Origin: a virus
Strand: one strand, 5' to 3'
DNA length: 64,000 nt
IMG/VR virus record: IMGVR_UViG_3300045988_132849
Location: 76,252 to 140,251 of that record
Position 1 is the stretch's first letter, and the number at the start of each line of letters is the position of its first letter. The translations under genes were made by a program, and so were the position numbers. Of this stretch, positions 8,602 to 40,842 are shown one piece after another. Below the pieces are notes generated by a model that had not been told where the DNA came from, did no database searches, and saw only the letters and a program-made list of their open reading frames with translations.

Positions 8602-8637
8602 AATACAAATTTTTACATAAGAAAGGTGGAATTAATT

Positions 8638-15961: not shown

Positions 15962-16912
15962 ATGGCAGCAACACAGTTTGAAGTTATTAAAACAGCAAAC
16001 AATAATAACGCAGAAGAACCTGAAGCAAAGATCAAAAGACGTAAGGACGGAAATCCTAAATGGACTCGATCTAATAAACAAAAAGGCGTATCATCTTTAG
16101 TGTATCCAATTAAGAACAAAGAAAAATTTGTAGCCTTTAATGCATATTTTAGAGACCAGATTGATAAATCGTACACAGAGTACAAACGATATGTAGCTGC
16201 CAGAAACAATCTTTTGGTTGCAGTTGGAAACAATACAGCATATCGTATCTCTGATATCGTCAGACTCAAATGGGGCGATTTATTAAACGATAAGACTCGT
16301 AAGCAGGAAAAGAAAACAAAGAAATTCAGAACTGTATACTTTAACGATTTGGTAACTGAAGCAGTGGATATTTTCTTTGAAGCTGTTGCAGGAACTAAAT
16401 ATGATGTCAAGATTGATGGCGAAGTGCCAATGGATGATTATGTTTTTGGAACATGTAAGTCTGGATCAGGACACATGACTGAAGCAAATGCTTTGGATTT
16501 TGTTAAAAAAGGTGCTAAAGCAGTTGGAATTGAGGACAATATTGGTACGCATACATTACGAAAGAACTTTGTGTATTGGACACTTGTCGATCATAAAGAT
16601 GATCAGAACGTATTGTATACACTTATGAGATTATTGAATCATAGTAGCCCTGCAATGACATTTCTGTATGCAACAATCACAGAGGAAGAAACTCATGTAT
16701 TGTTTGATGATATTGCGCAGACATACAAGGAAATTATCAGTGGGGCTTTTAACGGATTGAAGGAAAATGTTGTTAATGTGAGTTATGATAGAGTTATGGA
16801 GATTATCAAGTTTGCTTATAAGACTGGCAAAGATGATGCAGATCAAGATGATAGAGTACATGAAGATAATATGCAGGCATTAGAAGAGTTATTGGAAGGA
16901 GTAATTGTATGA
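15962..16912 (+). CDS. site-specific tyrosine recombinase (phage integrase family), 316 aa
   Basis: Box I AYRISDIVRLKWGDL (Arg); GTHTLRKNF (H-x-x-R); LLNHSSPAMTFLYA (H...Y catalytic Tyr). Confidence 0.75.
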   Translation: MAATQFEVIKTANNNNAEEPEAKIKRRKDGNPKWTRSNKQKGVSSLVYPIKNKEKFVAFNAYFRDQIDKSYTEYKRYVAARNNLLVAVGNNTAYRISDIVRLKWGDLLNDKTRKQEKKTKKFRTVYFNDLVTEAVDIFFEAVAGTKYDVKIDGEVPMDDYVFGTCKSGSGHMTEANALDFVKKGAKAVGIEDNIGTHTLRKNFVYWTLVDHKDDQNVLYTLMRLLNHSSPAMTFLYATITEEETHVLFDDIAQTYKEIISGAFNGLKENVVNVSYDRVMEIIKFAYKTGKDDADQDDRVHEDNMQALEELLEGVIV

Positions 16913-17655
16913 TATTTGTAACAGGAGATACACATGGGGATTGGATGACTCGATTAAACAGTCGTTCTTTCCCAGAGGGAGTTGAGTTAACCAAAGATGA
17001 TTATGTGATTATCTGCGGAGATTTTGGACTGTGGCATGACACAAAAGAAGAACGATATAATCTGGAATGGTTAGATAACAAGCCATTTACTACATTGTTT
17101 GTATGTGGGAATCATGAAAATTATAATCGGCTGTACGAATATCCTGTAGAAGAATGGAATGGAGGAAAGATTCATAAGATTCGTGATTCTATCTTCCATC
17201 TCATGCGAGGACAGGTATTTGATATTCAAGGCAAGAAATTCTTTACGTTTGGCGGAGCAAGTTCCCATGATGTTCAAGATGGAATTTTAGAGCCAGACGA
17301 TCCAAGAATTAATGAATGGTACAGAGATTATGACAAAATGTTTAGGATTAATCATGTGAGCTGGTGGAAAGAAGAATTGCCATCTGATAAAGAGATGGCA
17401 GAAGGTGTGATGAATTTAGAGAAAAATGACTTCCAAGTAGATTACGTTATTACACATAGTCCATACACATCTGTTTTAAGACAAATGGATCAAGGATCAG
17501 GAGTGTACAAATCTGACAAGTTAACGGATTATTTACAGCAAATAAAAGACAAAGTGATTTATCAAAAATGGTTCTTTGGGCATATGCATGTGAACCAGAA
17601 CTTTCCAGGAGATAATGCGATTGCAATTTACGAACAAATTATTAGGATTTTATAG
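16909..17655 (+). CDS. calcineurin-like metallophosphoesterase (Ser/Thr phosphatase-like), 248 aa
   Basis: GDTHGD, GDFG, GNHE, GHMH motifs. Confidence 0.8.
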   Translation: MIFVTGDTHGDWMTRLNSRSFPEGVELTKDDYVIICGDFGLWHDTKEERYNLEWLDNKPFTTLFVCGNHENYNRLYEYPVEEWNGGKIHKIRDSIFHLMRGQVFDIQGKKFFTFGGASSHDVQDGILEPDDPRINEWYRDYDKMFRINHVSWWKEELPSDKEMAEGVMNLEKNDFQVDYVITHSPYTSVLRQMDQGSGVYKSDKLTDYLQQIKDKVIYQKWFFGHMHVNQNFPGDNAIAIYEQIIRIL

Positions 17656-20958: not shown

Positions 20959-21783
20959 ATGACAGAAGAAAAGAATATGGTTAATGAAGGGTTAAACACT
21001 TTGGTGTTCAACAATGATGAATTTGGAAATATCCGCACAGCGGTCTTAGATAACGAGCCTTGGTTTTCTGGCAAAGATGTTGCAAGCTGTCTTGGATATG
21101 TAGATACGGTTAATGCATTAAAGAAGCATGTTGATGACGAAGATAAGAGATTATTTCTAAGGTGCCAAATCGCCACCTTAGAAAACGTACCAAACAGAGG
21201 GCTTACATTTATTAATGAATCTGGTTTATACGCTTTAATTTTTGGAAGTAAATTGGATACCGCAAAAGAATTTAAGCATTGGGTCACATCAGAAGTTCTT
21301 CCGCAGATTCGTAAGACAGGTGGATATATTCCAATCGAAAAAGATGATGATGATTTAACCATCATGGCAAAAGCATTGAATATTATGCAAAATACTTTGG
21401 AGCAAAAGGATGAGCTATTAGCCCAGAAAGAAGAAGTTATTAGCCAGCAGAAGCCACTTGTCGATTTTGCCAATACAGTCAGTGCCACAGAAACAATGGT
21501 TGACATGAAAACAATGGCAAAACTTCTTGAGAAAGAAAATCAAGATATTCATATGGGTAGAAACAAATTGTTTGCGTGGTTAAGAAAAGAAGGGTATCTC
21601 ATGTCAGATAACACACCATATGAAAGATATGTTAAGCAGGGCATTTTCAAATTAACAGAGAGTGAAGTTGAGACTAAGAATGGGAGTAAGTTGATCACTA
21701 AGACATATGTGACTGGCAAAGGGCAATTATACTTAGCAAAGAAATTAGCACAATATTTTGCATCACAGAGTGCTTTGGCTTAG
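20959..21783 (+). CDS. phage antirepressor, Bro-N + KilA-C domain protein (274 aa)
   Basis: FNNDEFGNIRTAVLDNEPWFSGKDVASCLGY...ESGLYALIFGSKLDTAKEFKHWVTSEVLPQIRKTGGY is a classic Bro-N; C-terminal KLFAWLRKEGYLM... is KilAC-like. Confidence 0.8.
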   Translation: MTEEKNMVNEGLNTLVFNNDEFGNIRTAVLDNEPWFSGKDVASCLGYVDTVNALKKHVDDEDKRLFLRCQIATLENVPNRGLTFINESGLYALIFGSKLDTAKEFKHWVTSEVLPQIRKTGGYIPIEKDDDDLTIMAKALNIMQNTLEQKDELLAQKEEVISQQKPLVDFANTVSATETMVDMKTMAKLLEKENQDIHMGRNKLFAWLRKEGYLMSDNTPYERYVKQGIFKLTESEVETKNGSKLITKTYVTGKGQLYLAKKLAQYFASQSALA

Positions 21784-23652: not shown

Positions 23653-25722
23653 ATGTGCACACCAATGAATGAAAACTGGAGCAATTTTTTAAGCAAATTG
23701 TCAGAGCGTTTAAATAAAATGCTCGACTATGTAGAGAAAAACAATTCTACATTGTATGAAACCGATATTGATAAGGATGAACTTTGGGAAGTATATCTGA
23801 GTAGTTTCCCTGAAGGAACTAACAAAATGTATCGCAAGCGAAGAGAATATGACTGTGGTCATTGTCGAAACTTTATTAAAACAATCGGTGGAGCTGTGGC
23901 AATTGTTGACGGCAAGATTCATACAATCTGGGAGATCGACACAGATGATGTAGTATTTCAGCCAGTAGTTGATGCTTTAAGAACGTATGTCGAATCAAAG
24001 CCGATCAAAGATATTTGGAGACATTTTACAAACACAGTTGGTACAAAAACCACAAATGAGTATACAGAAGATAAGCAGATTATCAAATGGACTCATATGT
24101 ATACACCGATTCCAGAGAGGTTATTGGAAAGGAAATCTGATATTCCTACAGTTAAAGCAAAAGTGAGAGATCGAAAGAATGTGTTTAAAAGATCACTTGA
24201 TGAAATTACAGAAGAAGCTGTTGATACAGTATTAGAACTGATTGCTTCAAATACTCTTTATAGAGGACAGGAATGGGAAAGAGTATTAAAAGATTTTAGA
24301 AAATATCAGCGAGAATACAACGGTTTGCCAGATGAAGAAAAAGATACATACACATGGACAAAAGCCATGACGATCGGAGATGTAATTGGTCGTATTAGAA
24401 ACCATAGTATCGGTACATTACTTGTGAATATCAGTGAAGGTATGGATTTAGATAATGCAGTAAAAGCTTATGAAAATGTTGTAGCTCCTGCGAATTACAA
24501 ACGACCTAAAGCAATCTTTACAAAGAAAATGCTTGAAGATGCAAAGAAAACTGTAACCGATTTAGGATATATGGATTCATTGCAGCGTAGATTTGCAAGA
24601 CTTGACGATATTACAGTAAACAATATTCTGTTTTGTAATCGTGATGCAGCACCACGTATCCAGGGCGGTTTAGATATTTTTGATGAGATGAGTAAGGAAG
24701 TCGCTGTAAATCCTAAGAAATTCTCTAAAGTAGAAGAGATCAGTGCAGAGAAATTTGTATCAGATGTTCTTCCAACCGCAAAAGAATTAGAAGTCTTGTT
24801 TGAAAATAGACATAAGAAGAACATGGTTTCACTGATCGCACCTGTAAACAAAGATGCCAAGAACATGATGAAGTGGGGTAATCCTTTCAGTTGGGCATAC
24901 TCAGGAAATATGACAGATAGTGAGATGAAAGAAAGAGTTAAGAACGCAGGCGGAGCAGTTGATGGAGTCTTAAGATTTTCAATCCAGTGGAACGCAGGAA
25001 AAGACTGGAATAGGGATGATTTTGATGCACATTGTAAAACACCTTGTCATCATATTTTCTTTGGCCAGATGCTTGATCATAAAACACGAGGCAGACTTGA
25101 TGTTGATGTAATTAATCCAGTAAAGGGGAAACCTGCTGTAGAAAATATCACATGGGCGGATAAATCCAAGATGGTTGATGGAGATTATGAATTTTTCGTA
25201 CGCAATTATTGCCATAACAACGGTACATCAGGATTTACAGCAGAGATTGAATTTGATGGTCAGATTTACGAATTTGAATATGATAAACCTTTAAGACAGG
25301 GGCAGAACGTACCAGTGGCTACAGTTACATTAAAAGATGGAGTGTTCACAATCAAAGAGAAACTTCCATCTACAACATCTTCAAGAGAAATCTGGGGTGT
25401 CAATACAAATCAGTTTGTGCCAGTAACAGTAATGTGTTATTCGCCTAACTATTGGGATGAACAGACAGGTATTGGACACAAACATTATCTGTTCATGTTA
25501 AACGGATGTGTAAATGAAGATACTCCAAATGGATTCTTCAATGAGTTCTTGAAACAGGAATTAGTACAGCACAAGAGAGTATTCGAGGCTTTAGGAAGTA
25601 AGATGCATGTCGCAGATGATTCAAACCAGTTATCAGGAATTGGCTTCAGCTCTACAAAGCGAGATGATGTGATTGTTAAAGTCAAAGGCGCAACTGAAAG
25701 AGTTCTTAAAATTAAATTTTAA
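23653..25722 (+). CDS. large hypothetical protein (689 aa)
   Basis: AAAGGAGAT RBS; no family recognised. Confidence 0.5.
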   Translation: MCTPMNENWSNFLSKLSERLNKMLDYVEKNNSTLYETDIDKDELWEVYLSSFPEGTNKMYRKRREYDCGHCRNFIKTIGGAVAIVDGKIHTIWEIDTDDVVFQPVVDALRTYVESKPIKDIWRHFTNTVGTKTTNEYTEDKQIIKWTHMYTPIPERLLERKSDIPTVKAKVRDRKNVFKRSLDEITEEAVDTVLELIASNTLYRGQEWERVLKDFRKYQREYNGLPDEEKDTYTWTKAMTIGDVIGRIRNHSIGTLLVNISEGMDLDNAVKAYENVVAPANYKRPKAIFTKKMLEDAKKTVTDLGYMDSLQRRFARLDDITVNNILFCNRDAAPRIQGGLDIFDEMSKEVAVNPKKFSKVEEISAEKFVSDVLPTAKELEVLFENRHKKNMVSLIAPVNKDAKNMMKWGNPFSWAYSGNMTDSEMKERVKNAGGAVDGVLRFSIQWNAGKDWNRDDFDAHCKTPCHHIFFGQMLDHKTRGRLDVDVINPVKGKPAVENITWADKSKMVDGDYEFFVRNYCHNNGTSGFTAEIEFDGQIYEFEYDKPLRQGQNVPVATVTLKDGVFTIKEKLPSTTSSREIWGVNTNQFVPVTVMCYSPNYWDEQTGIGHKHYLFMLNGCVNEDTPNGFFNEFLKQELVQHKRVFEALGSKMHVADDSNQLSGIGFSSTKRDDVIVKVKGATERVLKIKF

Positions 25723-25742
25723 CATAAAAAGGAGATTGAATT

Positions 25743-26132
25743 ATGACAACAGAAAATTTATTCGAAATGGCAACAAGAAACAAAATGAGATTCCCATCCA
25801 CAAAGGGTGAGTTATCTGTAGAAGATTTATGGGATTTGTCCGACAAAGATTTAGACGTGGTTTACAAAAATCTGAAAGATCAGGAAGTTAAATCTTCAGA
25901 AGAAAGCCTGTTAGATGATGCAAATGTTGATCCAAAATTAACGGCTGCGATTGGTATTGTAAGATACATCTTTACAACAAAACGTAAAGAGAAACTTGCA
26001 GAGAAGGAACGTATTAATAAGAAACAGACACAGAAAAAGTATATTGATGCTCTTTCCAAGAAACAGGATGAGGCTATTGAGAAGATGTCAGAAGCGGAAT
26101 TACGTGCAATGATTGATTCTTTCGAAGATTAA
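25743..26132 (+). CDS. hypothetical protein (129 aa)
   Basis: AAGGAGAT RBS. Confidence 0.5.
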   Translation: MTTENLFEMATRNKMRFPSTKGELSVEDLWDLSDKDLDVVYKNLKDQEVKSSEESLLDDANVDPKLTAAIGIVRYIFTTKRKEKLAEKERINKKQTQKKYIDALSKKQDEAIEKMSEAELRAMIDSFED

Positions 26133-26189
26133 GATGATATGCCTGAGCGTCCGTTTGGACGTTCGGGTGCTTAAAGAAAGGAGATTACG

Positions 26190-26657
26190 ATGATTTATAA
26201 ATTAGAATTAGGTGATTGGTCGGAAGATGGGCATAAAATATCAGAAAGTTTTTTATTTGATTGTAACTATGATATTCATAAAATTCGACAAGCGTATAAA
26301 GACAGTTGTAAAAAGCTAGGCGTAGGTTTTAATTGTAATGAAGATTATACGGGGCTAGGTCTTGGTTGTAGAAGTGAGAGACTGATTTGGACAGAGTATC
26401 AAGAATCAGAAATTAGCGAAACAGCATTTGAAATTTTAAATAATTTTGGGTGTTTTAAAGAGGTTGATTTTTATAAAGAAGATGGTGTGTATTATATCGA
26501 AGAAAGGAAAGACTGTGCAAAACTTATTATGAATTTTATCGCATTGTCTATGCCTAAAGATTTTCGATATAAGCTCGTCCAAGAGCCAAAAGTTGAATCG
26601 ATTAATAGTTGGAATCATGAACTGAGACAGCACTTTGGGTATGGATTATTTGATTAA
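26190..26657 (+). CDS. hypothetical protein (155 aa)
   Basis: AAGGAGAT RBS. Confidence 0.5.
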   Translation: MIYKLELGDWSEDGHKISESFLFDCNYDIHKIRQAYKDSCKKLGVGFNCNEDYTGLGLGCRSERLIWTEYQESEISETAFEILNNFGCFKEVDFYKEDGVYYIEERKDCAKLIMNFIALSMPKDFRYKLVQEPKVESINSWNHELRQHFGYGLFD

Positions 26658-26688
26658 TAAAACAGTAATTTAATGGAAGGAGAAAACA

Positions 26689-27285
26689 ATGGACGTTAAT
26701 AAATTATTGGTTGTCGTCGATATGCAGAATGATTTCATCGACGGAAGCCTTGGAACCAAAGAAGCACAGGAAATTGTTCCCAAAGTAATTGAGAAAATTA
26801 AAAATTTTGATGGCATTATTGTTACAACAATGGACACACACGATGAAAATTATTTATCTACACAGGAAGGAAAGAATCTTCCAGTAAAGCATTGCATCTG
26901 CGGAGAAGATGGATGGCATTTAAATGAAGAAGTTAGAAAGGCATTATTATCGTCAGAGATGTTTTGTCGCAATGACAAGCAAGAAAATGCTATTTGGCTT
27001 CTTGAGAACTATTGTAAAGAAACATTTGGGTCATTAGAACTTATGGACGATTGTTCTGATGAATTCGGTGAAGATGGTCGGTCTCATCCAGAAGATGTTG
27101 AAATTACCTTAATTGGTCTTTGTACAGATATTTGTGTAATCTCTAATGCAATGTTATTAAAAGCGGCACTTCCAGAGGCAAAGATTCTTGTAGATGCATC
27201 GTGTTGCGCAGGTGTAACACCAGAGAGCCACAAGAACGCACTCGAAGCAATGAAGATGTGTCAGATTGAAGTAATCAATGAGTAA
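26689..27285 (+). CDS. isochorismatase-family hydrolase, possible nicotinamidase (PncA-like), 198 aa
   Basis: LLVVVDMQNDFIDGSLG (Asp), metal-site-like DTHDEN, and LIGLCTDICV (nucleophile Cys) match the isochorismatase/nicotinamidase fold. Confidence 0.6.
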   Translation: MDVNKLLVVVDMQNDFIDGSLGTKEAQEIVPKVIEKIKNFDGIIVTTMDTHDENYLSTQEGKNLPVKHCICGEDGWHLNEEVRKALLSSEMFCRNDKQENAIWLLENYCKETFGSLELMDDCSDEFGEDGRSHPEDVEITLIGLCTDICVISNAMLLKAALPEAKILVDASCCAGVTPESHKNALEAMKMCQIEVINE

Positions 27286-27299
27286 AGGAGTGATGAAGG

Positions 27300-28136
27300 A
27301 TGATTACTATTGGTGGAGTACCAGTTGTTCCAGAATCTTTTCCAGATGGAACACAGAAAATTGGTTTGCCGTTAGGAGCAATGAGATCACGGATTGCAGT
27401 AAATAAATTTGTATCAATTGAATGGCTGTATGAATCAGATAAAGAATTATTTTCGCTATATTGTATTTCAAAAAGTATTCGAGAATATTTCCCACATTTA
27501 TCACAGTGTTTAGTGATGCCGTATATTCCGAATGCAAGATTTGACAGGGTTAAAGATCATAACGAATGTTTTACATTAAAATATTTTGCAGAAATCATCA
27601 ATGAATTAAATTTTAGAAAGGTCATCGTAACAGATCCTCACTCAGATGTTTCTAAAGCATTGATTGATCACCTACAATATATACCAATTAAACTATATAT
27701 TTCTAAGGTTTGCAATAAAGTCCTTAAAGCAGAGCCATCAAGAAATCTCGTAATTTATTTCCCAGATAGCGGATCACTAAAAAGATATTCTGAATTTGTG
27801 TCAGATCATTATCCGATTGTCTATGGAATTAAAAATCGTGATTGGAAGACAGGAGAAATTCTTGGTATTGAGATTCATGGAGATACAGATAAATTAGATG
27901 AGAATACAGCAATTCTAATGATTGATGATATTTGTAGTAAGGGTGGCACATTTTATTATGGATCAAAAGAATTAAGCAAATACGGTTGTAAAGATATGTA
28001 TTTATATGTTAGTCACTGTGAAAATACAATTCTTGATGGCGAATTATTAAAGGAAGATAGTTTGTTTAAAAAAGTGTATACGACACGTAGCATTTTTACA
28101 AAAGAACATGAGAAGGTTGAGGTGTTAGATTTATGA
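27300..28136 (+). CDS. ribose-phosphate pyrophosphokinase (PRPP synthetase)-family enzyme; candidate ADP-ribose pyrophosphokinase (Adps-like) of an NAD reconstitution pathway
   Basis: FPDGTQKI, LVMPYIPNARFDR (vs PRPS PYFGYARQDR), VIVTDPHSD, LVIYFPDSGSLKR, AILMIDDICSKGGTF (PRT type I nucleotide-binding motif). Confidence 0.7.
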   Translation: MITIGGVPVVPESFPDGTQKIGLPLGAMRSRIAVNKFVSIEWLYESDKELFSLYCISKSIREYFPHLSQCLVMPYIPNARFDRVKDHNECFTLKYFAEIINELNFRKVIVTDPHSDVSKALIDHLQYIPIKLYISKVCNKVLKAEPSRNLVIYFPDSGSLKRYSEFVSDHYPIVYGIKNRDWKTGEILGIEIHGDTDKLDENTAILMIDDICSKGGTFYYGSKELSKYGCKDMYLYVSHCENTILDGELLKEDSLFKKVYTTRSIFTKEHEKVEVLDL

Positions 28137-29599
28137 AACAGACAAATCCAATGTTATTAATTGATTTTTATAAAGCAGTTCATGCTGAAATGTTACCAAA
28201 AGGTATTACAAAATCTGTTTCTTATTTTACTCCACGTATGAGCAGGGTAAAACAATGGAACGAAGTCGTGATGTTTGGGTTACAGGGATTCATTAAAGAA
28301 TATCTGATTGATTATTTTAATAAGAATTTCTTTGATCTTAAAGGTGGAGCAGTTACTTCTTACAAGAGAATTATGGACGCAGCTCTTGGAGAAAATGCTT
28401 ATGGATTACAGAAAATCGCAGATCTTTATGAGCTTGGTTATCTTCCGATTGAGATTAAAGCACTTCCCGAAGGAACTTTAGTACCAATGCATGTACCGAT
28501 GTTTAGTATTGAGAATACTCACAAAGATTTTGCATGGTTACCACAGGCATTAGAAAGTTTAATTTCCGCAGAAATGTGGCATCCGATGATTGCTGCGACT
28601 GTCGGGCATACATATAGACAGATCGTTAATAAGTTTTATGAAATGACTTGTGATGATGATATTGTAAAAGCTAAAGCATTAGGGGCTTTCGATTTTCGTG
28701 GCGAAGAATGCTTACAGTCTGCGGTTAAAGCAGGAGCAGGATGGTGTTTATCATTCTTAAATACAGCTACGGTTCCAACAATTCCATATTTAGAGAGAAA
28801 TTATAATTGTGATTGTACGAAAGAACCAGTTGCTTTTGGTAGCCCGTCTACTGAGCATTCGGTTGCGTGTAGTAATTATGCGATTGACGGAGATGAAGAG
28901 ACTCTGATTAAAAGATTACTTACAGAGATTTATCCAAACACAAGCTTCTCCGCAGTATTGGATTCATATGATTATTGGAACGTTGTAGAGAATATTCTTC
29001 CAAAACTCAAGAATGAGATCATGAATCACAATGGATGTTTTCTTGTAAGAGGAGATTCAGGAGATTGTGTAGATGTAGTAACCAGAACGGTATTCAAGTT
29101 ATGGGAAGAATTTGGCGGAACTACGAATAGTAAAGGATACAAAGTATTAGATCCTCATATAAAAGCAATTTACGGAGATTCAATTACAGTGCAGAGATGT
29201 GAGCAGATTTATGACATCTTAGAGAAAAATGGATTCGCAGCAAGCAATGTTGCACTTGGCGTTGGATCATTCTCATTCCAGTGTATTGAAGAAGATAGAG
29301 TTTTGAAACCATTTACAAGAGATACATTTAGTAGCTGTATCAAAGCAACGTATTGCGAGATTGATGGCAAACCATATCCAATTTTCAAGAATCCAAAAGA
29401 TGGCGGATTTAAGAAATCTCAGAGAGGTTTATGTCATGTCTATAAAGAATCAGACGGTAAATTGACATTTAAAGATGGATATACTTCAGAAAATCTTCCA
29501 ATGAATAATCTGCTTGAGACAGTATTTAGAGATGGCAAATTGGTAAAAGAACAGTCATTACAGGAAATTAGAAGAGTTTTAAACGAAGGAGAATTTTAA
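28133..29599 (+). CDS. nicotinamide phosphoribosyltransferase (NAMPT/NadV)-family enzyme; candidate nicotinamide ADP-ribose transferase (Namat-like)
   Basis: 488 aa; N-terminus LLIDFYKAVHAEMLPKGITKSVSYFTPR matches the NAMPT DSYKvtH...ySYfe.R motif; start overlaps the PRPS-like gene. Confidence 0.75.
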   Translation: MKQTNPMLLIDFYKAVHAEMLPKGITKSVSYFTPRMSRVKQWNEVVMFGLQGFIKEYLIDYFNKNFFDLKGGAVTSYKRIMDAALGENAYGLQKIADLYELGYLPIEIKALPEGTLVPMHVPMFSIENTHKDFAWLPQALESLISAEMWHPMIAATVGHTYRQIVNKFYEMTCDDDIVKAKALGAFDFRGEECLQSAVKAGAGWCLSFLNTATVPTIPYLERNYNCDCTKEPVAFGSPSTEHSVACSNYAIDGDEETLIKRLLTEIYPNTSFSAVLDSYDYWNVVENILPKLKNEIMNHNGCFLVRGDSGDCVDVVTRTVFKLWEEFGGTTNSKGYKVLDPHIKAIYGDSITVQRCEQIYDILEKNGFAASNVALGVGSFSFQCIEEDRVLKPFTRDTFSSCIKATYCEIDGKPYPIFKNPKDGGFKKSQRGLCHVYKESDGKLTFKDGYTSENLPMNNLLETVFRDGKLVKEQSLQEIRRVLNEGEF

Positions 29600-30111
29600 T
29601 GATTAAAATTATTGAAGGCGATTTGTTTGATACAAATGCGAAATTTATTTGTCATCAAGTAAATTGTGCAGGGAAAATGGGATCTGGGGTAGCGTTACAG
29701 GTACGACAAAAATATCCGCATGTATATAAAGAATATGAAAAAGTTGCTTCGGAAGATATGTTAGGGGAAGTACAGATCATACCAGTGAATTCAAAATTTA
29801 TTGGACATGAACCAGGAGATATTTGGTGTGGTATGAAAGTAAAAGGGTTCAGGGAAACACAATGGATTTGTAATTTATTTGCTCAAAAGAGTTATGGATA
29901 TGACGGCAAGCAGTATACTTCAAATGAAGCTTTGAGACAGTGCTTTAAAAAACTTGCAGGAATGGTGCATGAGAAAAACAATAACTTTGGACAAACAATC
30001 GCTATGCCATATAAAATTGGATGTTGTCGTGGAGGATCTGATTGGAGTGATGTTGCCAATATTATCGAAGAAGAATTTAAAGATTGTAATGTAGAATTAT
30101 GGAGGTTATAA
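29599..30111 (+). CDS. macrodomain protein of the TARG1/OARD1/DarG type (ADP-ribosyl hydrolase), 170 aa
   Basis: IIEGDLFDTNAKFICHQVNCAGKMGSGVALQVRQKY and IAMPYKIGCCRGGSDWSDVANIIEEEF align with human TARG1 [37 protein letters not shown] / [26 protein letters not shown] (from memory). Confidence 0.7.
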   Translation: MIKIIEGDLFDTNAKFICHQVNCAGKMGSGVALQVRQKYPHVYKEYEKVASEDMLGEVQIIPVNSKFIGHEPGDIWCGMKVKGFRETQWICNLFAQKSYGYDGKQYTSNEALRQCFKKLAGMVHEKNNNFGQTIAMPYKIGCCRGGSDWSDVANIIEEEFKDCNVELWRL

Positions 30112-30114
30112 AAC

Positions 30115-30885
30115 ATGAGTTTTAATGCAGCAGAAACCAAAGACAGATTAGTACAGTGGATCAGAGATTGGTTTGAAATTAATGGCAAAGGATGTAATGC
30201 CATTGTAGGAATTTCAGGAGGCAAGGATTCATCAGTGGTTGCAGCCTTATGTGTAGAAGCACTTGGTAAGGATCGAGTAATTGGAATTATGATGCCACAG
30301 GGTGTGCAGTCGGACATTGAGTATTCTCAAATGCTATGTGATCATCTAGGAATTGAACATTACACAGTTAATATTTTTAATGCTTGCAGAGATATTAAAC
30401 ATGAAATCAGAGATGAATTAGGTGGTAAATGGAGTAAACAGAGTGCTACAAATTTACCTGCTCGTATCCGTATGGCTACATTATATGCTTTTGCACAGAG
30501 TATGAATGGAAGAGTAGCAAATACATGTAATTTATCTGAAGATTGGGTCGGATATGCAACAAGATATGGAGATTCGGCTGGAGATTTTAGTCCATTAAGT
30601 GATCTGACTGTGACAGAAGTTAAAGCAATTGGTAAAGTTCTGGGACTTCCAACAGAGTTAATCGAAAAAACTCCTACTGATGGGTTATGTGGCAAGACAG
30701 ATGAAGATAATCTTGGATTTACATACGAAGTGTTGGATGAATATATCAGAACAGGTGAATGCAAGGATAAAGTAGTGAGACAGATCATTGATGAAATGCA
30801 TGAGAAGAATGTATTTAAACTTGCTCCAATGCCTAAATTTATATCTGGCATGTGGATCGAGGCAGGAATGGAGTTGGATGATTAA
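30115..30885 (+). CDS. nadE: NH3-dependent NAD+ synthetase
   Basis: PP-loop IVGISGGKDSSVVAAL; ~256 aa, typical size. Confidence 0.85.
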   Translation: MSFNAAETKDRLVQWIRDWFEINGKGCNAIVGISGGKDSSVVAALCVEALGKDRVIGIMMPQGVQSDIEYSQMLCDHLGIEHYTVNIFNACRDIKHEIRDELGGKWSKQSATNLPARIRMATLYAFAQSMNGRVANTCNLSEDWVGYATRYGDSAGDFSPLSDLTVTEVKAIGKVLGLPTELIEKTPTDGLCGKTDEDNLGFTYEVLDEYIRTGECKDKVVRQIIDEMHEKNVFKLAPMPKFISGMWIEAGMELDD

Positions 30886-30887
30886 AT

Positions 30888-31220
30888 ATGGAAGTTAAAG
30901 CAAAATGGACAGGTCGTGGTTTTGCACTCTGTATTGGAGAATGGAAGCTTTATGTTGATGGCAAAGATGTTACCGATAAGATTCCAGAAGACTTACGCAC
31001 AGAACCTATGAATACATATAAGAAATATGAGAGATGGTATTTCAAAGGTTGGGTTGAAGAATGGGAGTCATATTATGACGGACTGAAACAAGATGAATGG
31101 ATTGAGTCTAATAAGTATTGGTTAGATGAAATTACAACAGATATTGATGTTCAGCGTCAGATCTTCAAAGCAATCAATGAAGAGGATTTTCGCCCTAACT
31201 CATGTGGTGGGTGTATTTAA
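30888..31220 (+). CDS. hypothetical protein (110 aa), translationally coupled to nadE
   Basis: ATG overlaps the nadE stop (TAAATATGG). Confidence 0.5.
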   Translation: MEVKAKWTGRGFALCIGEWKLYVDGKDVTDKIPEDLRTEPMNTYKKYERWYFKGWVEEWESYYDGLKQDEWIESNKYWLDEITTDIDVQRQIFKAINEEDFRPNSCGGCI

Positions 31221-31285
31221 TAACAAGATTATAACATCTATATATGGTGTTATGATAAATAAATTTTATAACAAAGGAGATATTT

Positions 31286-32746
31286 ATGATTGAAGTAATT
31301 GGAACAGTGGTACCAGTGGTTATTGCGGTAGGTGGCGTAGGAGCTATTATCGGTAGCGGTTATGTCAAAGCAAGTCCAGATAAAGCTTATATTATTTCTG
31401 GACTTAGAAAGACACCTAAGACATTAATTGGTAAGGCAGGGTTAAAAATCCCATTCTTTGAAAAAGCAGATCATCTTAATCTTGAGTTAATTCCAATTGA
31501 TGTTAAGACATCAAGCTCTGTGCCTACAGCAGATTATATCAATATCAATGTAGATGCAGCGGTCAATGTAAAGGTTAGCAGTAATCCAGAAAGATTAAAA
31601 CTTGCAGCAGAAAACTTCTTAAATAAGCCAGTAGGCGATATTGGACAGGTCGCAAGAGAAGTCCTTGAAGGTAATATGCGAGAGATCGTTGGAAAGATGA
31701 GCCTCGAAGAAATGGTTTTTGATCGTCAGAAATTTGCACAGCTTGTTACAGAAAATGCGAAGCCAGATCTTGCTGCAATGGGATTAGATATTATCAGTTT
31801 TAATGTTCAGAATTTTATGGATGATAATGATGTTATTGAAAATCTTGGTGTAGATAATGTTGTTAAAATCAAGAAGAAGGCTGCGATTTCCAGAGCTGAA
31901 AGCGAAAGAGATATTGAAAAAGCAAAAGCAATGGCTGAAAAAGAAGCAAATGATGCAAAGGTAGAGTCAGCAACAGCGATTGCAGAAAAGAATAACAATT
32001 TGGAGATTAAAAAATCTGAACTTGAAAAGATTTCAAAAGCAAAGAAAGCTGAGGCAGATGCAGCATACAAGATCCAGGAAGAAAAATCACGTAAAGAAAT
32101 TGAAGTTGTAACTGCGGATGCTAATATTATGCGTCAGGAAAAGGAAATTGAACTGAAACGCAAAGACGTTGAGGTAACAGAGCAGACATTAGATGCACAG
32201 ATCAAGAAGCAGGCAGAGGCTGAAAGATATGCTTCACAGCAGAAAGCAGATGCAGACTTATACAAGAAACAGAAAGAATCTGAAGCTAACAAATATGCCA
32301 AAGAAAAAGAAGCCGAATCTACAAAATATGCTATGGAGCAGGAAGCTGAAGGTATTCGTGCAAAGGGTGTAGCAGAAGCCGAAGCAATCAAAGCTAAAGG
32401 TATTGCTGAAGCAGAAGCAATCGAAAAGAAAGCAGAAGCTATGAAACAGATGGGTAAAGCATCTATTGTAGAAATGATGTGTCAGATGTTCCCAGAAGCA
32501 GTTAAAAATGCAGCCGCACCATTAGGAAATGTAGGAAGTATCACTATGTATGGAGAAGGAAACACAACAAAATTAACAAAAGATATTATGAATGTTGTGA
32601 ATCAGGTATCAGATGGTGTTAAAGGATCTACAGGTGTTGATCTTGCAAAGATGTTAAAAGATTTTGTTTCTGAAGACAACGAAGTAGAATCTACAGATAA
32701 TGAAAATCTTGGAACACCAGAGCCAGCAGATTACCGTGAGTTCTAA
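31286..32746 (+). CDS. flotillin / SPFH (band-7) domain membrane protein (486 aa)
   Basis: N-terminal TM, SPFH domain, then long EA-rich coiled coil (AEAEAIKAKGIAEAEAIEKKAEA), typical of FloT/YqiK/YdjI-type flotillins. Confidence 0.8.
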   Translation: MIEVIGTVVPVVIAVGGVGAIIGSGYVKASPDKAYIISGLRKTPKTLIGKAGLKIPFFEKADHLNLELIPIDVKTSSSVPTADYININVDAAVNVKVSSNPERLKLAAENFLNKPVGDIGQVAREVLEGNMREIVGKMSLEEMVFDRQKFAQLVTENAKPDLAAMGLDIISFNVQNFMDDNDVIENLGVDNVVKIKKKAAISRAESERDIEKAKAMAEKEANDAKVESATAIAEKNNNLEIKKSELEKISKAKKAEADAAYKIQEEKSRKEIEVVTADANIMRQEKEIELKRKDVEVTEQTLDAQIKKQAEAERYASQQKADADLYKKQKESEANKYAKEKEAESTKYAMEQEAEGIRAKGVAEAEAIKAKGIAEAEAIEKKAEAMKQMGKASIVEMMCQMFPEAVKNAAAPLGNVGSITMYGEGNTTKLTKDIMNVVNQVSDGVKGSTGVDLAKMLKDFVSEDNEVESTDNENLGTPEPADYREF

Positions 32747-32760
32747 TAGGAGAAATTATT

Positions 32761-33495
32761 ATGACAATTATTATTATTTGTGTAATTGTAGCGATTATCG
32801 TATATTTACAATTTACTAAAAATGGAAAGCAGATTAAAAATGTAGCATCTGGAACAGTTACAGAGAAAATCAAAGAAAATGCAATGACCCCAGAGGGAGC
32901 AAGAGCCAGATATAATACTGCAATTAAAGAGAAACAGGACTTTTACAAGAAAACAATGGGTACATACACAACGGTGGCTGGTAGATTAGCAACAATGGAA
33001 GATGATCTCAAAGAAACTAAAGAAGAAATTTCTAAAACCGAGGTAATGATCAACCAGTACATTGATAACAACGATGACAAAAAAGCAATGTATTATGCTC
33101 AAAAATTAGCCACGCTAAAGGCACAGAAATCAGTGTACGAAAAGAAAATCCCAGAGTTGCAATCCACAAAAGATAAACAAGAAGAAATTAAAAACCAAGC
33201 ATATGATCAGCTCATTAAGTTAAAAGGCGAAAAAGATACTGTGGTTCTCCAGATGGAAGCGGATCAGCAGATTGCAGAATTGCAGAAAAATTTAGATCAA
33301 TACAATAGTTCTAATGCTGCTCAGGAAGGATTGGAAGAGGTTCGAGAAGGAGCAAAGAAGCTTAGCGAACAAGCCAAAGGCGTTACCATTGCGTATGAAT
33401 CTAGTGCAGAAACATTGGATTATCATATGGAACAAGAAGAGCGACAGCAGGAAGCTAAATCTATATTAGATCAGATGAAAAACGCTCGCAAATAG
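32761..33495 (+). CDS. membrane-anchored coiled-coil protein, weakly PspA/IM30-like (244 aa)
   Basis: N-terminal TM helix then ~220-aa amphipathic coiled coil; the PspA resemblance is loose. Confidence 0.35.
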   Translation: MTIIIICVIVAIIVYLQFTKNGKQIKNVASGTVTEKIKENAMTPEGARARYNTAIKEKQDFYKKTMGTYTTVAGRLATMEDDLKETKEEISKTEVMINQYIDNNDDKKAMYYAQKLATLKAQKSVYEKKIPELQSTKDKQEEIKNQAYDQLIKLKGEKDTVVLQMEADQQIAELQKNLDQYNSSNAAQEGLEEVREGAKKLSEQAKGVTIAYESSAETLDYHMEQEERQQEAKSILDQMKNARK

Positions 33496-33625
33496 CAAAT
33501 AAATTTATCTATAAAAATTAATTTCACAAACATAAAACTGGCATTTTATGACTCTATAAAACACAATATATAGTGATTATCCAATTATTGAACCACTATA
33601 TATAGTTGTATAAAGTGCCAGTCAT

Positions 33626-33763
33626 GGAAACATAGCTCAGTTGGTAGAGCAGGCAATACATAAACATTCATTTTTCTACCTCCATATAAGTATTTTTATT
33701 TATTTACATTTAATTTTCATCACATATAAATTGCCGACACAGGTTCGATTCCTGTTGTTTCCA
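33626..33763 (+). tRNA. tRNA-like gene (anticodon probably CAU: Met or Ile2-type) interrupted by a ~67-70-nt AT-rich insertion in the anticodon loop
   Basis: Acceptor GGAAACA/TGTTTCC, D-arm GCTC-AGTTGGTA-GAGC, anticodon stem GGCAA/TTGCC, T-arm ACAGG-TTCGATT-CCTGT, discriminator A. Loop begins TA-CAT-AA. The insert is flanked by ACATAAA / ACATATAAA direct repeats. Confidence 0.5.
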
Positions 33764-39888: not shown

Positions 39889-40842
39889 ATGAAATGTTTT
39901 TATCATGTGGATCAAGACGGAATCGTGTCTGGATTCTACGTCAGAAAAGCTTGCGAACAGCGAGGCTTGGCATTTGAACCAGAGGACTTTCGAAAAATTA
40001 ATTACGGTATGAAATTCCCGTTTCATGACATTAAGCAGGATGAATTTGTATTCATTGTAGACTACAGCATTGAGCCAGAAGAGATGTGGCAGTTGCTTAG
40101 TATCACAAAGAATGTATTCTGGATCGACCATCATCAATCTACGATTGAAACGTATAAAGATTTCAAGTGTGATGTAAAAGGCATTCGAATTACTGGAGCA
40201 GGTATTTCGGGAGCGAATTTGACATGGTTATATTTTAAAGAAATGTGTGACGAAGATTGGGAGCAAATTGAGAGGACAGATGAGAAAAATGTAAAAAGAT
40301 TACTCAATATATATAAATATAAAGAAGATTATCCAAAACTGGCAGAATATACAGCCATGTGGGATACATTTTATTTTGGTGCAACGTCAAAAAAATTCAT
40401 AAAAGCATTTCACTATGCATTTGAATCGTATGATTTTGATGCGTTAAGTCCATTGCTAAACACGTTAAATGAAGATCAAGGAATTTATGAAGCAGCAAAA
40501 ATTATTGGTGATATGATAACAGATGGCTTATCAATTATTGAGTATTTAGCAGCAAATGCAGAACAATATCTTAGAGCATATGGTTTTGAAACCACATTTG
40601 AGGGACATAAAGTCTATGCGATCAATCGAGCATTAATCAATTCTGATTTCTTTGAATCTATTGATGCTTCTAAATATGATATGTTCATTGGTTTTTCATT
40701 CAATGGTAGTATGTGGGAATATCAGTTACGATCCGCAGAACAGGATAAAGTAAATGTGTATGAGCTTGCTGTGAAATATGGTGGTGGCGGTCACCCAAAT
40801 GCAGCTGGGTTCAGGAGCGATAAATATGTATTAGGAGTGTGA
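39889..40842 (+). CDS. DHH-DHHA1 phosphoesterase, NrnA-like (nanoRNase / pAp phosphatase family), 317 aa
   Basis: Motif I HVDQDGIVSG, motif III VFWIDHHQS, DHHA1 GGGGHPNAAGF. Confidence 0.75.
   Translation: MKCFYHVDQDGIVSGFYVRKACEQRGLAFEPEDFRKINYGMKFPFHDIKQDEFVFIVDYSIEPEEMWQLLSITKNVFWIDHHQSTIETYKDFKCDVKGIRITGAGISGANLTWLYFKEMCDEDWEQIERTDEKNVKRLLNIYKYKEDYPKLAEYTAMWDTFYFGATSKKFIKAFHYAFESYDFDALSPLLNTLNEDQGIYEAAKIIGDMITDGLSIIEYLAANAEQYLRAYGFETTFEGHKVYAINRALINSDFFESIDASKYDMFIGFSFNGSMWEYQLRSAEQDKVNVYELAVKYGGGGHPNAAGFRSDKYVLGV

What the first reader, a model, noticed from the sequence alone, without database searches (positions are those of the whole stretch)
26689..30885. Five-gene phage NAD+/ADP-ribose metabolism block: nicotinamidase-like, PRPS-like, NAMPT-like, TARG1-like macrodomain and NadE
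Five consecutive, mostly translationally coupled genes encode an isochorismatase/nicotinamidase-like hydrolase, a PRPP-synthetase-family enzyme, a NAMPT-family phosphoribosyltransferase, a TARG1/DarG-type macrodomain and NH3-dependent NAD synthetase. The PRPS-like and NAMPT-like pair is the signature of the recently described phage NAD+ reconstitution pathway 1 (ADPR pyrophosphokinase plus nicotinamide ADPR transferase), which rebuilds NAD+ from ADPR and nicotinamide after NAD-depleting immunity (Thoeris, DSR, SIR2-type). The co-located macrodomain, NadE and nicotinamidase-like genes are not part of the described two-gene module as far as I recall. They suggest a larger cassette that also removes ADP-ribosyl adducts or processes ADPR derivatives and feeds deamidated precursors (NaAD to NAD via NadE). 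The phage ligase (62857 onward) and presumably other functions are NAD-dependent, which gives a rationale. The extended five-gene arrangement may be undescribed.
Basis: partly seen in the sequence, partly recalled or inferred. Interest (0 to 1): 0.85.

Follow-up and report, generated by a model that had tools for sequence, protein, structure and literature searches.

The report
Nicotinate-route phage NAD rebuilding cassette
A gut phage of Lachnospiraceae carries the known phage operon that rebuilds NAD+ after bacterial immunity destroys it, but in a so far undescribed form that appears to go through nicotinic acid and deamido-NAD instead of nicotinamide.

Summary
Three of them (Adps-like, Namat-like, macrodomain) match NARP1 with its associated phosphatase, NARP1-AP, described in 2024 and in a January 2026 preprint.

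The new part is the nicotinamidase and NadE. Across hundreds of related gut-phage contigs the conserved unit is four genes: nicotinamidase, Adps, Namat-like and NadE. The slot between Namat and NadE is variable: macrodomain, small HAD-like protein, NADAR or empty.

Every Namat-like protein of this clade has lost the Asp that binds the amide of nicotinamide (SPbetaL1 D215, human NAMPT D219). It is Ala212 in the window and Ala or Ser in relatives. A second nicotinamide contact is also switched (A242 to Ser).

Among loci collected without regard to NadE, 0 of 81 Asp/Glu-type operons carry NadE and 15 of 15 Ala/Ser-type do.

Best reading, all inferred from sequence:
- nicotinamide is deamidated to nicotinate;
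- nicotinate is joined to ADPR-PP to give NaAD;
- NadE amidates NaAD to NAD+.

No paper found describes this. It is a new variant of a known kind.

The parts
26689..27285 (+). Nicotinamidase (PncA-like isochorismatase-family hydrolase). Inferred reaction: nicotinamide + H2O -> nicotinate + NH3.
   Evidence: PF00857 at 65 bits. The best solved-structure matches are all nicotinamidases: 1ilw/1im5, 29iv, 2wt9, 3pl1. The catalytic triad D11-K110-C149 and the metal site D49-H51-H68 are invariant in 105 of 105 unique homologs. phAss-1 annotates its ortholog as nicotinamidase.
27300..28136 (+). Adps-like PRPP-synthetase-family pyrophosphokinase. Inferred reaction: ADPR + ATP -> ADPR-PP + AMP.
   Evidence: phrog_619 at 223 bits; TIGR01251 only 75 bits against a cutoff of 113. 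It is 34.8% identical over 97% of its length to the experimentally validated SPbetaL1 Adps, against 41 bits to B. subtilis PRS. At 278 aa, the match ends at position 285 of the 309-position PRS model. R80, H114, D156, K178, D209 and D210 correspond to Adps R87, H121, D161, K185, D212 and D213, and are invariant in 130 Ala/Ser-clade and 44 Asp/Glu-clade Adps. K178 corresponds to Gary Adps K192, whose K192A mutant is listed among the constructs used to inactivate each operon gene.
28133..29599 (+). Namat-clade NAMPT-family transferase with a remodelled pyridine pocket. Inferred reaction: nicotinate + ADPR-PP -> NaAD + PPi.
   Evidence: 390 bits to the top solved-structure entries 9w5x/9w5w, whose printed sequence matches the SPbetaL1 Namat given, against 175 bits to canonical NAMPT. 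Retained: catalytic H242, ring stackers F186 and Y13, R189, R306, D308, and clamp residues R38 and F380. Changed: D215->A212, A242->S239, G213->N210, and Y396->C384 followed by a 9-aa insertion in the clamp helix.
28766..28768 (+). Codon for Ala212, the position of SPbetaL1 Namat Asp215 and human NAMPT Asp219, the nicotinamide-amide contact.
   Evidence: Alignment. The position is Ala or Ser in 116 of 116 unique clade members and Asp or Glu in all 32 unique canonical Namats sampled. D215A lowers NAD+ formation from nicotinamide 8.1-fold in SPbetaL1 Namat. Human NaPRT has Ser214 at this position.
29599..30111 (+). Macrodomain of the TARG1/DarG/Poa1p class, Adpp-like. Inferred reaction: ADPR-1''-phosphate -> ADPR. 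It occupies a variable accessory slot.
   Evidence: PF01661 at 27.7 bits; phrog_335 'phosphatase', E = 2.5e-40. Solved-structure matches are DarG macro 5m3i/5m31, BT1257, Poa1p 6lfq and TARG1. It is 22% identical to the characterised Vibrio phage Gary Adpp (E = 3e-8), and Adpp His24 (mutated as H24A in that study) is conserved as H19. Homologs at 25-32% identity sit inside canonical Namat-Macro-Adps operons.
30115..30885 (+). Single-domain NH3-dependent NAD synthetase (NadE). Inferred reaction: NaAD + NH3 + ATP -> NAD+ + AMP + PPi.
   Evidence: TIGR00552 at 187.5 bits against a cutoff of 63.65; PF02540 at 190.7 bits. At 256 aa it has no glutaminase domain. The best solved structures are 2e18 (P. 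horikoshii NadE), then 3fiu, which I recall as the F. tularensis NMN synthetase. NadE is present next to every Ala/Ser-type Namat in the unbiased sample and next to no Asp/Glu-type one.

Best explanation
This is a phage counter-defence operon of the NARP1 lineage that rebuilds NAD+ from the products of immune NADases. It is re-routed through deamidated intermediates.

Proposed steps, all inferred from sequence and gene context:
1. The nicotinamidase converts the released nicotinamide to nicotinate plus NH3.
2. Adps pyrophosphorylates ADPR to ADPR-PP.
3. The Namat-like enzyme has lost the amide-binding Asp. It joins nicotinate to ADPR-PP and gives nicotinic acid adenine dinucleotide (NaAD).
4. 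The NH3-dependent NadE amidates NaAD to NAD+. It can use the ammonia freed in step 1.

The macrodomain is an exchangeable accessory. It most likely returns ADPR-1''-phosphate, the product of aRES-type defence, to the ADPR pool, as Adpp does in NARP1-AP.

Net reaction: nicotinamide + ADPR + 2 ATP -> NAD+. That is one ATP more than canonical NARP1.

Why a phage would take the detour is speculation. Possibilities:
- trapping the freely diffusible nicotinamide as charged nicotinate;
- using the nicotinate that hosts with active PncA accumulate;
- an extra ATP-driven irreversible step.

The general claim, that this is a NARP1-family NAD+ reconstitution cassette, I hold at about 0.9. The confidence given below is for the nicotinate/NaAD route specifically.
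For: Pocket change:
- SPbetaL1 Namat binds nicotinamide through F189, R192, D215, A242, R306, D13' and Y15', with D215 hydrogen-bonding the ligand.
- In 116 unique clade sequences the five ring and ribose contacts are invariant. Exactly D215 (to Ala/Ser) and A242 (to Ser) are switched in all 116. G213 also changes to Asn/Lys.
- The window has A212, S239 and N210.
- D215A cuts NAD+ synthesis from nicotinamide 8.1-fold.
- Asp219 is described as defining NAMPT substrate specificity. [quoted passage not shown]

Gene linkage:
- Loci were retrieved with canonical Namat queries, so without regard to NadE.
- 81 Asp/Glu-type loci have 0 NadE and 0 nicotinamidase. 15 Ala/Ser-type loci have 15 NadE and 12 nicotinamidase.
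- All 146 Namat-bearing loci retrieved through the nicotinamidase or NadE are Ala/Ser-type.
- The 40 bacterial-genome loci with a readable motif are Ala-type.

Pathway logic:
- The nicotinamidase has an intact triad and metal site. NadE is a bona fide single-domain NAD synthetase.
- Their product and substrate bracket exactly the proposed transferase reaction.

Conservation of the unit:
- The four genes stay together from more than 90% down to 33-45% protein identity (phAss-1), and through a rearrangement in MT835544, where the nicotinamidase sits after NadE.
- Flanking genes are conserved only among close relatives.

Retention of ADPR chemistry:
- Adps catalytic residues are invariant, with no clade-specific changes.
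- Clamp residues R38 and F380 are kept.
- The accessory slot holds ADPR-handling domains: Macro or NADAR.

Specificity of the NadE link:
- NadE-like genes of marine phages lie in sugar-modification clusters, not NAD cassettes.
- No NadD, PncB or NMNAT was found among the window ORFs scanned.
Against: - No biochemistry exists for any member of this clade. Specificity is inferred from two pocket positions and gene context.
- The Ala/Ser sequences form one clade (65% bootstrap). The link between Asp loss and NadE gain is therefore essentially one evolutionary event maintained over a deep clade, not many independent replicates.
- From memory, a D219S NAMPT mutant gains nicotinate use but keeps nicotinamide use. 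The enzyme could be dual-specific.
- The adenine-clamp helix carries a 9-30 aa insertion and has lost one stacking Tyr (C384) in most members. This could alter donor preference.
- The route costs an extra ATP, with no demonstrated benefit.
- The second-best solved-structure match of NadE is 3fiu, which I recall as the Francisella enzyme that prefers NaMN.
- L233 has nicotinamidase, Adps and Ala-type Namat but no NadE within 6 kb.
- L232 has NADAR, Namat, Macro and NadE without an adjacent Adps or nicotinamidase.
Confidence: 0.55

Rival explanations
1. Canonical NARP1-AP plus two independent helpers. The Namat-like enzyme still joins nicotinamide to ADPR-PP to give NAD+ directly. The nicotinamidase and NadE separately boost the host's Preiss-Handler salvage (phage PncA -> host PncB -> host NadD -> phage NadE).
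For: - The Adps/Namat pair is clearly of the NARP1 lineage.
- D215A keeps residual activity: it is 8-fold down, not dead.
- Host PncB and NadD are near-universal in bacteria (general knowledge).
- L233 lacks an adjacent NadE.
Against: - It does not explain why both amide-side contacts (D215 and A242) are replaced in 116 of 116 clade members and in none of 32 canonical ones.
- It does not explain why NadE is never found beside an Asp/Glu-type Namat: 0 of 81.
- A phage nicotinamidase would compete with Namat for the same nicotinamide.
Confidence: 0.2
2. A phage-encoded Preiss-Handler-type route through mononucleotides. The PRS-like enzyme makes PRPP. The NAMPT-like enzyme acts as a nicotinate phosphoribosyltransferase and gives NaMN. 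Then either NadE acts as an NMN synthetase (as in Francisella), or host NadD makes NaAD for NadE.
For: - The pocket looks nicotinate-adapted.
- The clamp helix that enforces ADPR-PP selectivity is disrupted by an insertion and has lost Tyr396.
- 3fiu, which I recall as the Francisella NMN synthetase, is the second-best solved-structure match of NadE.
- Namat can use PRPP in vitro.
Against: - The PRS-like protein sits in the Adps clade. It scores 223 bits on phrog_619, falls below the PRS family cutoff, lacks the PRS C-terminal module, and has an SPbetaL1-type PP loop.
- Clamp residues R38 and F380 are kept, and some Ala/Ser-type members (phAss-1 and four Ser-type sequences) keep an uninterrupted clamp motif.
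- The slot genes are ADPR-handling domains, which have no role in a PRPP route.
- No NMNAT or NadD was found in the window.
- Archaeal-type short NadE enzymes are true NAD synthetases.
Confidence: 0.1
3. This concerns the macrodomain only and is not exclusive of the above. It may be a DarG/TARG1-type glycohydrolase that removes ADP-ribose from DNA or protein, countering DarT-type defence and releasing ADPR, rather than an ADPR-1''-phosphate phosphatase.
For: - The best NCBIfam and solved-structure matches are DarG macrodomains.
- It is only 22% identical to the characterised Adpp.
- In relatives the same slot can hold NADAR. From memory, NADAR is known to reverse guanine ADP-ribosylation.
Against: - The DarG model score is 72.7 against a cutoff of 250, and the protein lacks the DarT-binding C-terminal half.
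- The position inside a NARP1 operon meets the published NARP1-AP criterion.
- Adpp His24 is conserved.
- Intermediate homologs link it to macros of canonical NARP1-AP operons.
- In relatives the slot can instead hold a small HAD-like putative phosphatase.
Confidence: 0.25

Closest known systems
NARP1 (Adps + Namat; Osterman et al. 2024, bioRxiv 10.1101/2024.02.11.579819)
   Same: An adjacent, translationally coupled Adps-clade PRS-like gene and a Namat-clade NAMPT-like gene. Catalytic residues are conserved. It is phage-borne. The inferred role is rebuilding NAD+ from ADPR after immune NADase action.
   Different: - The Namat-like enzyme lacks the nicotinamide-amide contacts (D215->Ala, A242->Ser).
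- It carries an insertion in the selectivity-clamp helix.
- The operon always includes a nicotinamidase and NadE.
- The predicted product of the transferase is NaAD, not NAD+.
NARP1-AP (Adps + Adpp macrodomain phosphatase + Namat; bioRxiv 10.64898/2026.01.28.702374)
   Same: A Pfam Macro-domain gene within the NARP1 operon. It is of the Poa1p/TARG1 class, and the His mutated in Adpp is conserved.
   Different: - The gene order is Adps-Namat-Macro rather than Adps-Macro-Namat.
- It is only 22% identical to the characterised Adpp.
- Here the macrodomain is one of several interchangeable occupants of a slot: Macro, HAD-like, NADAR or none.
Preiss-Handler salvage (PncA, PncB, NadD, NadE)
   Same: The first enzyme (nicotinamidase) and the last (NH3-dependent NAD synthetase) are the same. 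Deamidated intermediates are amidated at the end.
   Different: The two middle steps, PncB (nicotinate + PRPP -> NaMN) and NadD (NaMN + ATP -> NaAD), are proposed to be replaced. Adps plus a nicotinate-using Namat-like enzyme would make NaAD in one transfer onto ADPR-PP.
NARP2 (Nampt + Nmnat, phage KVP40) and NARP3 (PnuC-like + NadR-like; PMC13464706)
   Same: Phage-encoded NAD+ restoration that counters NAD-depleting immunity.
   Different: - No NMN adenylyltransferase, NadR or PnuC was found in the window.
- The NAMPT-family protein here belongs to the Namat branch, not the Nampt branch.

Membership tests
NARP1 | The PRS-like protein belongs to the phage Adps clade, separate from cellular Prs. 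| tested here: met
   phrog_619 at 223 bits; TIGR01251 at 75 bits against a cutoff of 113. 34.8% identity and E = 6e-33 to the validated SPbetaL1 Adps, against 41 bits to B. subtilis PRS.
NARP1 | Adps lacks the C-terminal alpha11-alpha12 module of PRPS (PMC13586617). | tested here: met
   278 aa. The match to the 309-position PRS model ends at model position 285, at residue 276. The feature is described. This was judged from sequence length and alignment only, not from a structure.
NARP1 | Adps catalytic Lys (K185; Gary K192) and acceptor-site R87, H121, D161, D212, D213. | tested here: met
   Window K178, R80, H114, D156, D209 and D210. They are invariant in 130 + 44 Adps sequences. Residues are defined. 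The ICP1-type numbering was mapped through Gary Adps with an assumed offset of 7.
NARP1 | A Namat homolog immediately next to adps (97% of the Adps clade). | tested here: met
   The stop of adps overlaps the start of the Namat-like gene by 4 nt.
NARP1 | Namat is closer to Namat than to Nampt, with the catalytic His present. | tested here: met
   390 bits to 9w5x/9w5w (whose sequence matches SPbetaL1 Namat) against 175 bits to NAMPTs. H242 corresponds to H245.
NARP1 | Namat selectivity-clamp helix motif GS-X-Phi-X-Phi-X-Phi-TRD, with aromatic X at positions 3 and 7 (PMC12774641). | tested here: not met
   The window reads GSFSFQC-IEEDRVLKP-FTRD. Position 3 is Phe, position 7 is Cys, and a 9-aa insertion comes before TRD. 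The clamp-loop Arg (R38) is present.
NARP1 | Namat nicotinamide-binding pocket includes Asp215 hydrogen-bonded to nicotinamide. | tested here: not met
   Ala212 in the window, and A242 is replaced by Ser239.
NARP1 | Activity: ADPR + ATP -> ADPR-PP, then ADPR-PP + nicotinamide -> NAD+. | not testable with these tools
   Needs purified proteins and LC-MS.
NARP1-AP | A protein with Pfam PF14519, PF01661 or PF20016 within two genes of the Adps/Namat pair. | tested here: met
   PF01661 at 27.7 bits against a cutoff of 22, in the gene directly after the Namat-like gene. That study used HHpred, whereas hmmscan was used here.
NARP1-AP | Adpp active-site His (the H24A mutant of Gary Adpp was made to inactivate it). 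| tested here: met
   Window H19 aligns with Gary H24.
NARP1-AP | ADPR-1''-phosphate phosphatase activity. | not testable with these tools
   Only 22% identity to the characterised enzyme.
Nicotinamidase (PncA) | Asp-Lys-Cys catalytic triad plus an Asp-His-His metal site. | tested here: met
   D11, K110, C149 and D49, H51, H68. All are invariant in 105 of 105 homologs. The top solved-structure matches are nicotinamidases.
NH3-dependent NAD synthetase (NadE) | Score above the family cutoff, and single-domain with no glutaminase domain. | tested here: met
   TIGR00552 at 187.5 bits against a cutoff of 63.65; 256 aa.
NH3-dependent NAD synthetase (NadE) | Prefers NaAD over NaMN. | not testable with these tools
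   Solved-structure neighbours include the P. horikoshii NadE 2e18 and 3fiu, which I recall as the Francisella NMN synthetase.
DarG antitoxin | Full-length match above cutoff, including the C-terminal DarT-binding domain. | tested here: not met
   NF048014 at 72.7 bits against a cutoff of 250. Only model positions 1-142 of 338 are matched.
NARP2 | Nampt plus an NMN adenylyltransferase. | tested here: not met
   No NMNAT was found among the window ORFs scanned. The nucleotidyltransferase at 42178-43011 is RlaP. Only the larger ORFs were scanned.

The most novel reading that the evidence does not exclude
A widespread clade of gut Clostridia phages uses a four-enzyme 'deamido-NARP1'. It contains a new enzyme activity, nicotinate:ADPR-PP ADP-ribosyltransferase, which makes NaAD in one step. 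A nicotinamidase precedes it and an NH3-dependent NadE follows it. An accessory slot (Macro, HAD-like, NADAR or empty) turns over rapidly and tailors which ADPR derivative can be fed in.
Probability: 0.5. Interest if true: 0.8.

Novelty: new variant of a known kind. Interest (0 to 1): 0.72.

Why it matters
NAD+ depletion is one of the commonest bacterial antiviral strategies. The known phage answers are NARP1, NARP1-AP, NARP2 and NARP3.

If the nicotinate route is real, it would:
- add a fifth pathway and a new enzymatic reaction, direct synthesis of NaAD from nicotinate and ADPR-PP;
- show that a single pocket switch plus two recruited housekeeping-type enzymes can re-route a counter-defence pathway;
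- raise the question of what in Lachnospiraceae hosts selects for it, such as nicotinamide loss, host PncA activity, or a defence that defeats nicotinamide-based NARP1.

It also matters for annotation:
- About 350 IMG/VR contigs encode relatives of the cassette's nicotinamidase and NadE.
- More than 8,000 protein clusters match the Namat-like protein at E <= 1e-30.
- Those that carry a source name are called nicotinamide or nicotinate phosphoribosyltransferase.
- Anti-defence finders would score these operons as plain NARP1.

Cultured carriers exist for experiments: Anaerostipes sp. Marseille-Q3525, Mogibacterium pumilum ATCC 700696 and Filifactor villosus CCUG 46385.

Tried and rejected
- Megablast of the block against 50,697 phage records found nothing. 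Relatives appeared only at protein level.
- The promoter and terminator scan of 25600-33700 gave fewer sites than shuffled sequence and says nothing about operon boundaries.
- I first misread 'HDF' as the Asp219 motif. The alignment showed that the relevant Asp lies in GTD(T), and the conclusion rests on that.
- I considered that the neighbours might be part of the module: the 155-aa ORF upstream and the 110-aa ORF downstream. I rejected this because they are conserved only among relatives with at least 90% identity.
- I considered that phage NadE is generally NAD-linked. I rejected this because the marine phage NadE-like genes sit in sugar and carbamoyl-transferase clusters.
- Pfam found nothing for the HAD-like slot protein. 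A profile search of solved structures gave only a weak match to 2obb (E = 0.002). Its phosphatase assignment rests on the DxDxT motif.
- The first 50 kb of phage Gary was fetched and did not contain its NARP1 operon. The sequences were taken from the paper's supplement instead.
- No structure prediction was run. The tools return no coordinates, so pocket geometry could not have been examined.

Full report
**Observation**

The window is a + strand, low-GC (about 34%) phage replication and early region.

| Coordinates | Length | Assignment |
|---|---|---|
| 26689-27285 | 198 aa | isochorismatase-like |
| 27300-28136 | 278 aa | PRPP-synthetase-like |
| 28133-29599 | 488 aa | NAMPT family |
| 29599-30111 | 170 aa | macrodomain |
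| 30115-30885 | 256 aa | NadE |

They are separated by 14, -4, -1 and 3 nt, each with a Shine-Dalgarno-like motif. Pfam, NCBIfam and PHROG scans confirm the five families. The NAD-dependent ligase from 62857 onward is also real.

**What is already known**

NARP1 is the two-gene phage pathway of Adps and Namat. Adps converts ADPR + ATP to ADPR-PP. Namat converts ADPR-PP + nicotinamide to NAD+.

A January 2026 preprint showed that 15% of 859 NARP1 operons also carry a macrodomain protein, Adpp. Adpp dephosphorylates ADPR-1''-phosphate, the product of the aRES defence system, and the extended pathway is called NARP1-AP. A May 2026 preprint adds RyDEP, another neighbour that feeds ADPR into NARP1. 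NARP3 is an unrelated PnuC/NadR pair.

Three of the five genes therefore correspond to a described system. None of the NARP papers read mentions nicotinate, NaAD, NadE or a nicotinamidase. Full-text searches for such combinations found nothing relevant.

**Membership of the core pair**

The PRS-like protein:
- scores 223 bits on the phage PRS family and falls below the cellular PRS cutoff;
- is 35% identical to the validated SPbetaL1 Adps;
- is short at the C-terminus, as Adps proteins are;
- keeps the catalytic Lys and acceptor residues.

The NAMPT-like protein scores 390 bits against the top solved-structure entries (9w5x/9w5w), whose sequence matches SPbetaL1 Namat, and 175 bits against NAMPTs.

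**Comparative genomics**

No nucleotide-level relative exists among deposited phages. At protein level, the nicotinamidase has relatives on 351 IMG/VR contigs and NadE on 343. Most are 90-170 kb human-gut phage contigs. The same gene order occurs in phage phAss-1, a code-15 gut phage, at 33-45% identity.

Among 102 unique Namat genes from the nicotinamidase- and NadE-seeded loci:
- 50 loci read nicotinamidase-Adps-Namat-Macro-NadE;
- 20 have Namat followed directly by NadE;
- 21 carry a 136-aa HAD-like protein (DFDDT ... TGN ... DDR) in the macro slot;
- others carry a NADAR domain or a homing-endonuclease-like insert.

In MT835544 the nicotinamidase sits after NadE instead of first. Flanking genes are conserved only among near relatives. 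The four genes persist in every identity bin.

The module is therefore four genes plus a variable slot. In the window's own lineage the macrodomain is a minority variant, present in 9 of 60 loci.

**The pocket switch**

The SPbetaL1 Namat-nicotinamide crystal structure lists F189, R192, D215, A242, R306, D13' and Y15' as contacts, with D215 hydrogen-bonded to the ligand. In the window the D215 position is Ala212.

Across 116 unique sequences of the clade, the five stacking and ribose contacts are invariant. D215 is always Ala or Ser, and A242 is always Ser. In 32 unique canonical Namats these positions are Asp (one Glu) and Ala.

The wider literature agrees on the role of this residue:
- D215A lowers NAD+ synthesis from nicotinamide 8.1-fold.
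- In the NAMPT/NaPRT pair this residue (NAMPT Asp219, NaPRT Ser214) is the recognised discriminator between nicotinamide and nicotinate.

**Linkage test**

I retrieved Namat loci with two canonical queries, SPbetaL1 and Vibrio phage Gary, so selection was blind to NadE.

| Residue at the D215 position | Loci | With NadE | With nicotinamidase |
|---|---|---|---|
| Asp or Glu | 81 | 0 | 0 |
| Ala or Ser | 15 | 15 | 12 |

The Ala/Ser sequences form one clade in a neighbour-joining tree (65% bootstrap), with Ala and Ser interleaved. This is one ancient switch that has been maintained, never reverting to Asp, rather than many independent events.

**The flanking enzymes**

- The isochorismatase-like protein has the nicotinamidase triad and metal site in 105 of 105 homologs, and only nicotinamidases as close solved structures.
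- NadE is a single-domain, ammonia-type NAD synthetase.
- No NadD, PncB or NMNAT was found in the window ORFs scanned.

**Mechanism proposed**

All steps are inferred.
1. Nicotinamide -> nicotinate + NH3 (nicotinamidase).
2. ADPR -> ADPR-PP (Adps).
3. Nicotinate + ADPR-PP -> NaAD (Namat-like enzyme).
4. NaAD + NH3 + ATP -> NAD+ (NadE).

The macrodomain is most likely an Adpp-type supplier of ADPR. It meets the published NARP1-AP criterion and keeps the His mutated in Adpp. It has intermediate homologs inside canonical NARP1-AP operons. Its closest profile matches are DarG macrodomains, so a de-ADP-ribosylating role is not excluded.

**Weaknesses**

- There is no biochemistry.
- The switch has a single evolutionary origin.
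- The clamp helix that selects ADPR-PP carries an insertion and has lost one Tyr in most members.
- The route costs an extra ATP.
- The second-best solved-structure match of NadE is 3fiu, which I recall as the Francisella NMN synthetase.
- There are two atypical loci, L233 and L232.

**Host**

Close relatives lie on Lachnospiraceae and other Clostridia MAG contigs. They are also found in cultured Anaerostipes sp. Marseille-Q3525 (95% identical Namat-like protein, with the HAD-like protein in the slot), Mogibacterium pumilum ATCC 700696 (chromosome) and Filifactor villosus. By the count in that preprint's supplement, aRES is most frequent in Bacillota, at 10.4% of genomes.

**Verdict**

The cassette is a new variant of NARP1/NARP1-AP, and the nicotinate/NaAD route is a specific, testable prediction.

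Noticed in passing
L006:9913-10323, L101, L012, L020, L057, L223, L307:7470-7880; phAss-1 L001:4784-5203 (- strand): In many relatives a ~136-aa protein occupies the macrodomain slot. It has HAD-like motifs (DFDDT ... TGN ... DDR). The same protein also lies between Namat and Adps in canonical Asp/Glu-type NARP1 operons (for example L278-L281, L285, L287). It has no Pfam match and only a weak match to the solved structure 2obb. It may be a non-homologous replacement for the Adpp phosphatase, and I found no description of it.
   Followed up: partly
L068 (slot ORF starting at 9861), L214, L206, L203, L248, L232:1540-1971: A NADAR-domain protein (PF08719, 99 bits) occupies or adjoins the accessory slot in some cassettes. 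It is also found next to some canonical NARP1 operons (L184, L186, L178).
   Followed up: partly
L005 (ORF starting at 10157), L014 (ORF starting at 10156): A 200-266 aa Cys-rich protein with a DUF2726 endonuclease-like C-terminus is inserted between Namat and NadE in close relatives. It looks like a mobile homing-endonuclease-type insert.
   Followed up: no
window 30888-31220: A 110-aa ORF starts 2 nt after the nadE stop (phrog_20678; Pfam PF27390 in the Anaerostipes relative). It is conserved only in relatives with at least 90% identity, so it is probably not part of the module. Function unknown.
   Followed up: partly
window 31286-32746 and 32761-33495: An SPFH/flotillin protein, followed by a coiled-coil protein whose counterpart in the Anaerostipes relative carries a weak PspA/IM30 hit, lies directly downstream. 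In the Anaerostipes relative this position instead holds a P-type cation ATPase, a vWA/TerF-like protein and TerD. It looks like a membrane-stress cargo region that varies between close relatives.
   Followed up: no
window 23653-25722: A 689-aa protein lies upstream of the cassette (phrog_1735 at 875 bits; DUF8224). It is conserved in close relatives. Function unknown.
   Followed up: no
window 8626-9990, 10555-11646, 20959-21783: Three paralogous anti-repressor-type genes lie in the same early region.
   Followed up: no
window 15962-16912 and 16909-17655: An integrase-like gene (phrog_216) overlaps a calcineurin-like metallophosphoesterase. One relative lies inside the Mogibacterium pumilum chromosome. 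Together these suggest a temperate lifestyle for a ~160-kb phage.
   Followed up: no
window 39889-40842 and 42178-43011: A DHH-family phosphoesterase and an RlaP (RNA-repair-pathway Pol-beta-type) nucleotidyltransferase. This may be an RNA repair or anti-defence pair. RlaP is not an NMN/NaMN adenylyltransferase.
   Followed up: partly
L305:5986-6744 (HTVC008M), L306:5980-6720 (Bellamy): The 'NadE' genes of marine myophages sit among carbamoyltransferase, methyltransferase, UDP-glucose dehydrogenase and glycosyltransferase genes. They are probably sugar amidotransferases and not NAD synthetases.
   Followed up: partly
L233 (Lachnospiraceae MAG, 161-kb contig) and L232: L233 has nicotinamidase, Adps and Ala-type Namat but no NadE within 6 kb downstream. 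L232 has NADAR, Namat, Macro and NadE with no adjacent Adps or nicotinamidase. These are exceptions to the four-gene rule and were not resolved.
   Followed up: partly
window 28133-29599 and relatives: NCBIfam NF006629 names this NAMPT-like family 'nicotinate phosphoribosyltransferase', and the window protein passes its cutoff (438 bits against 405). The Anaerostipes ortholog is so named in NCBI, while JGI calls relatives nicotinamide phosphoribosyltransferase. Neither name reflects the Namat-type chemistry.
   Followed up: no
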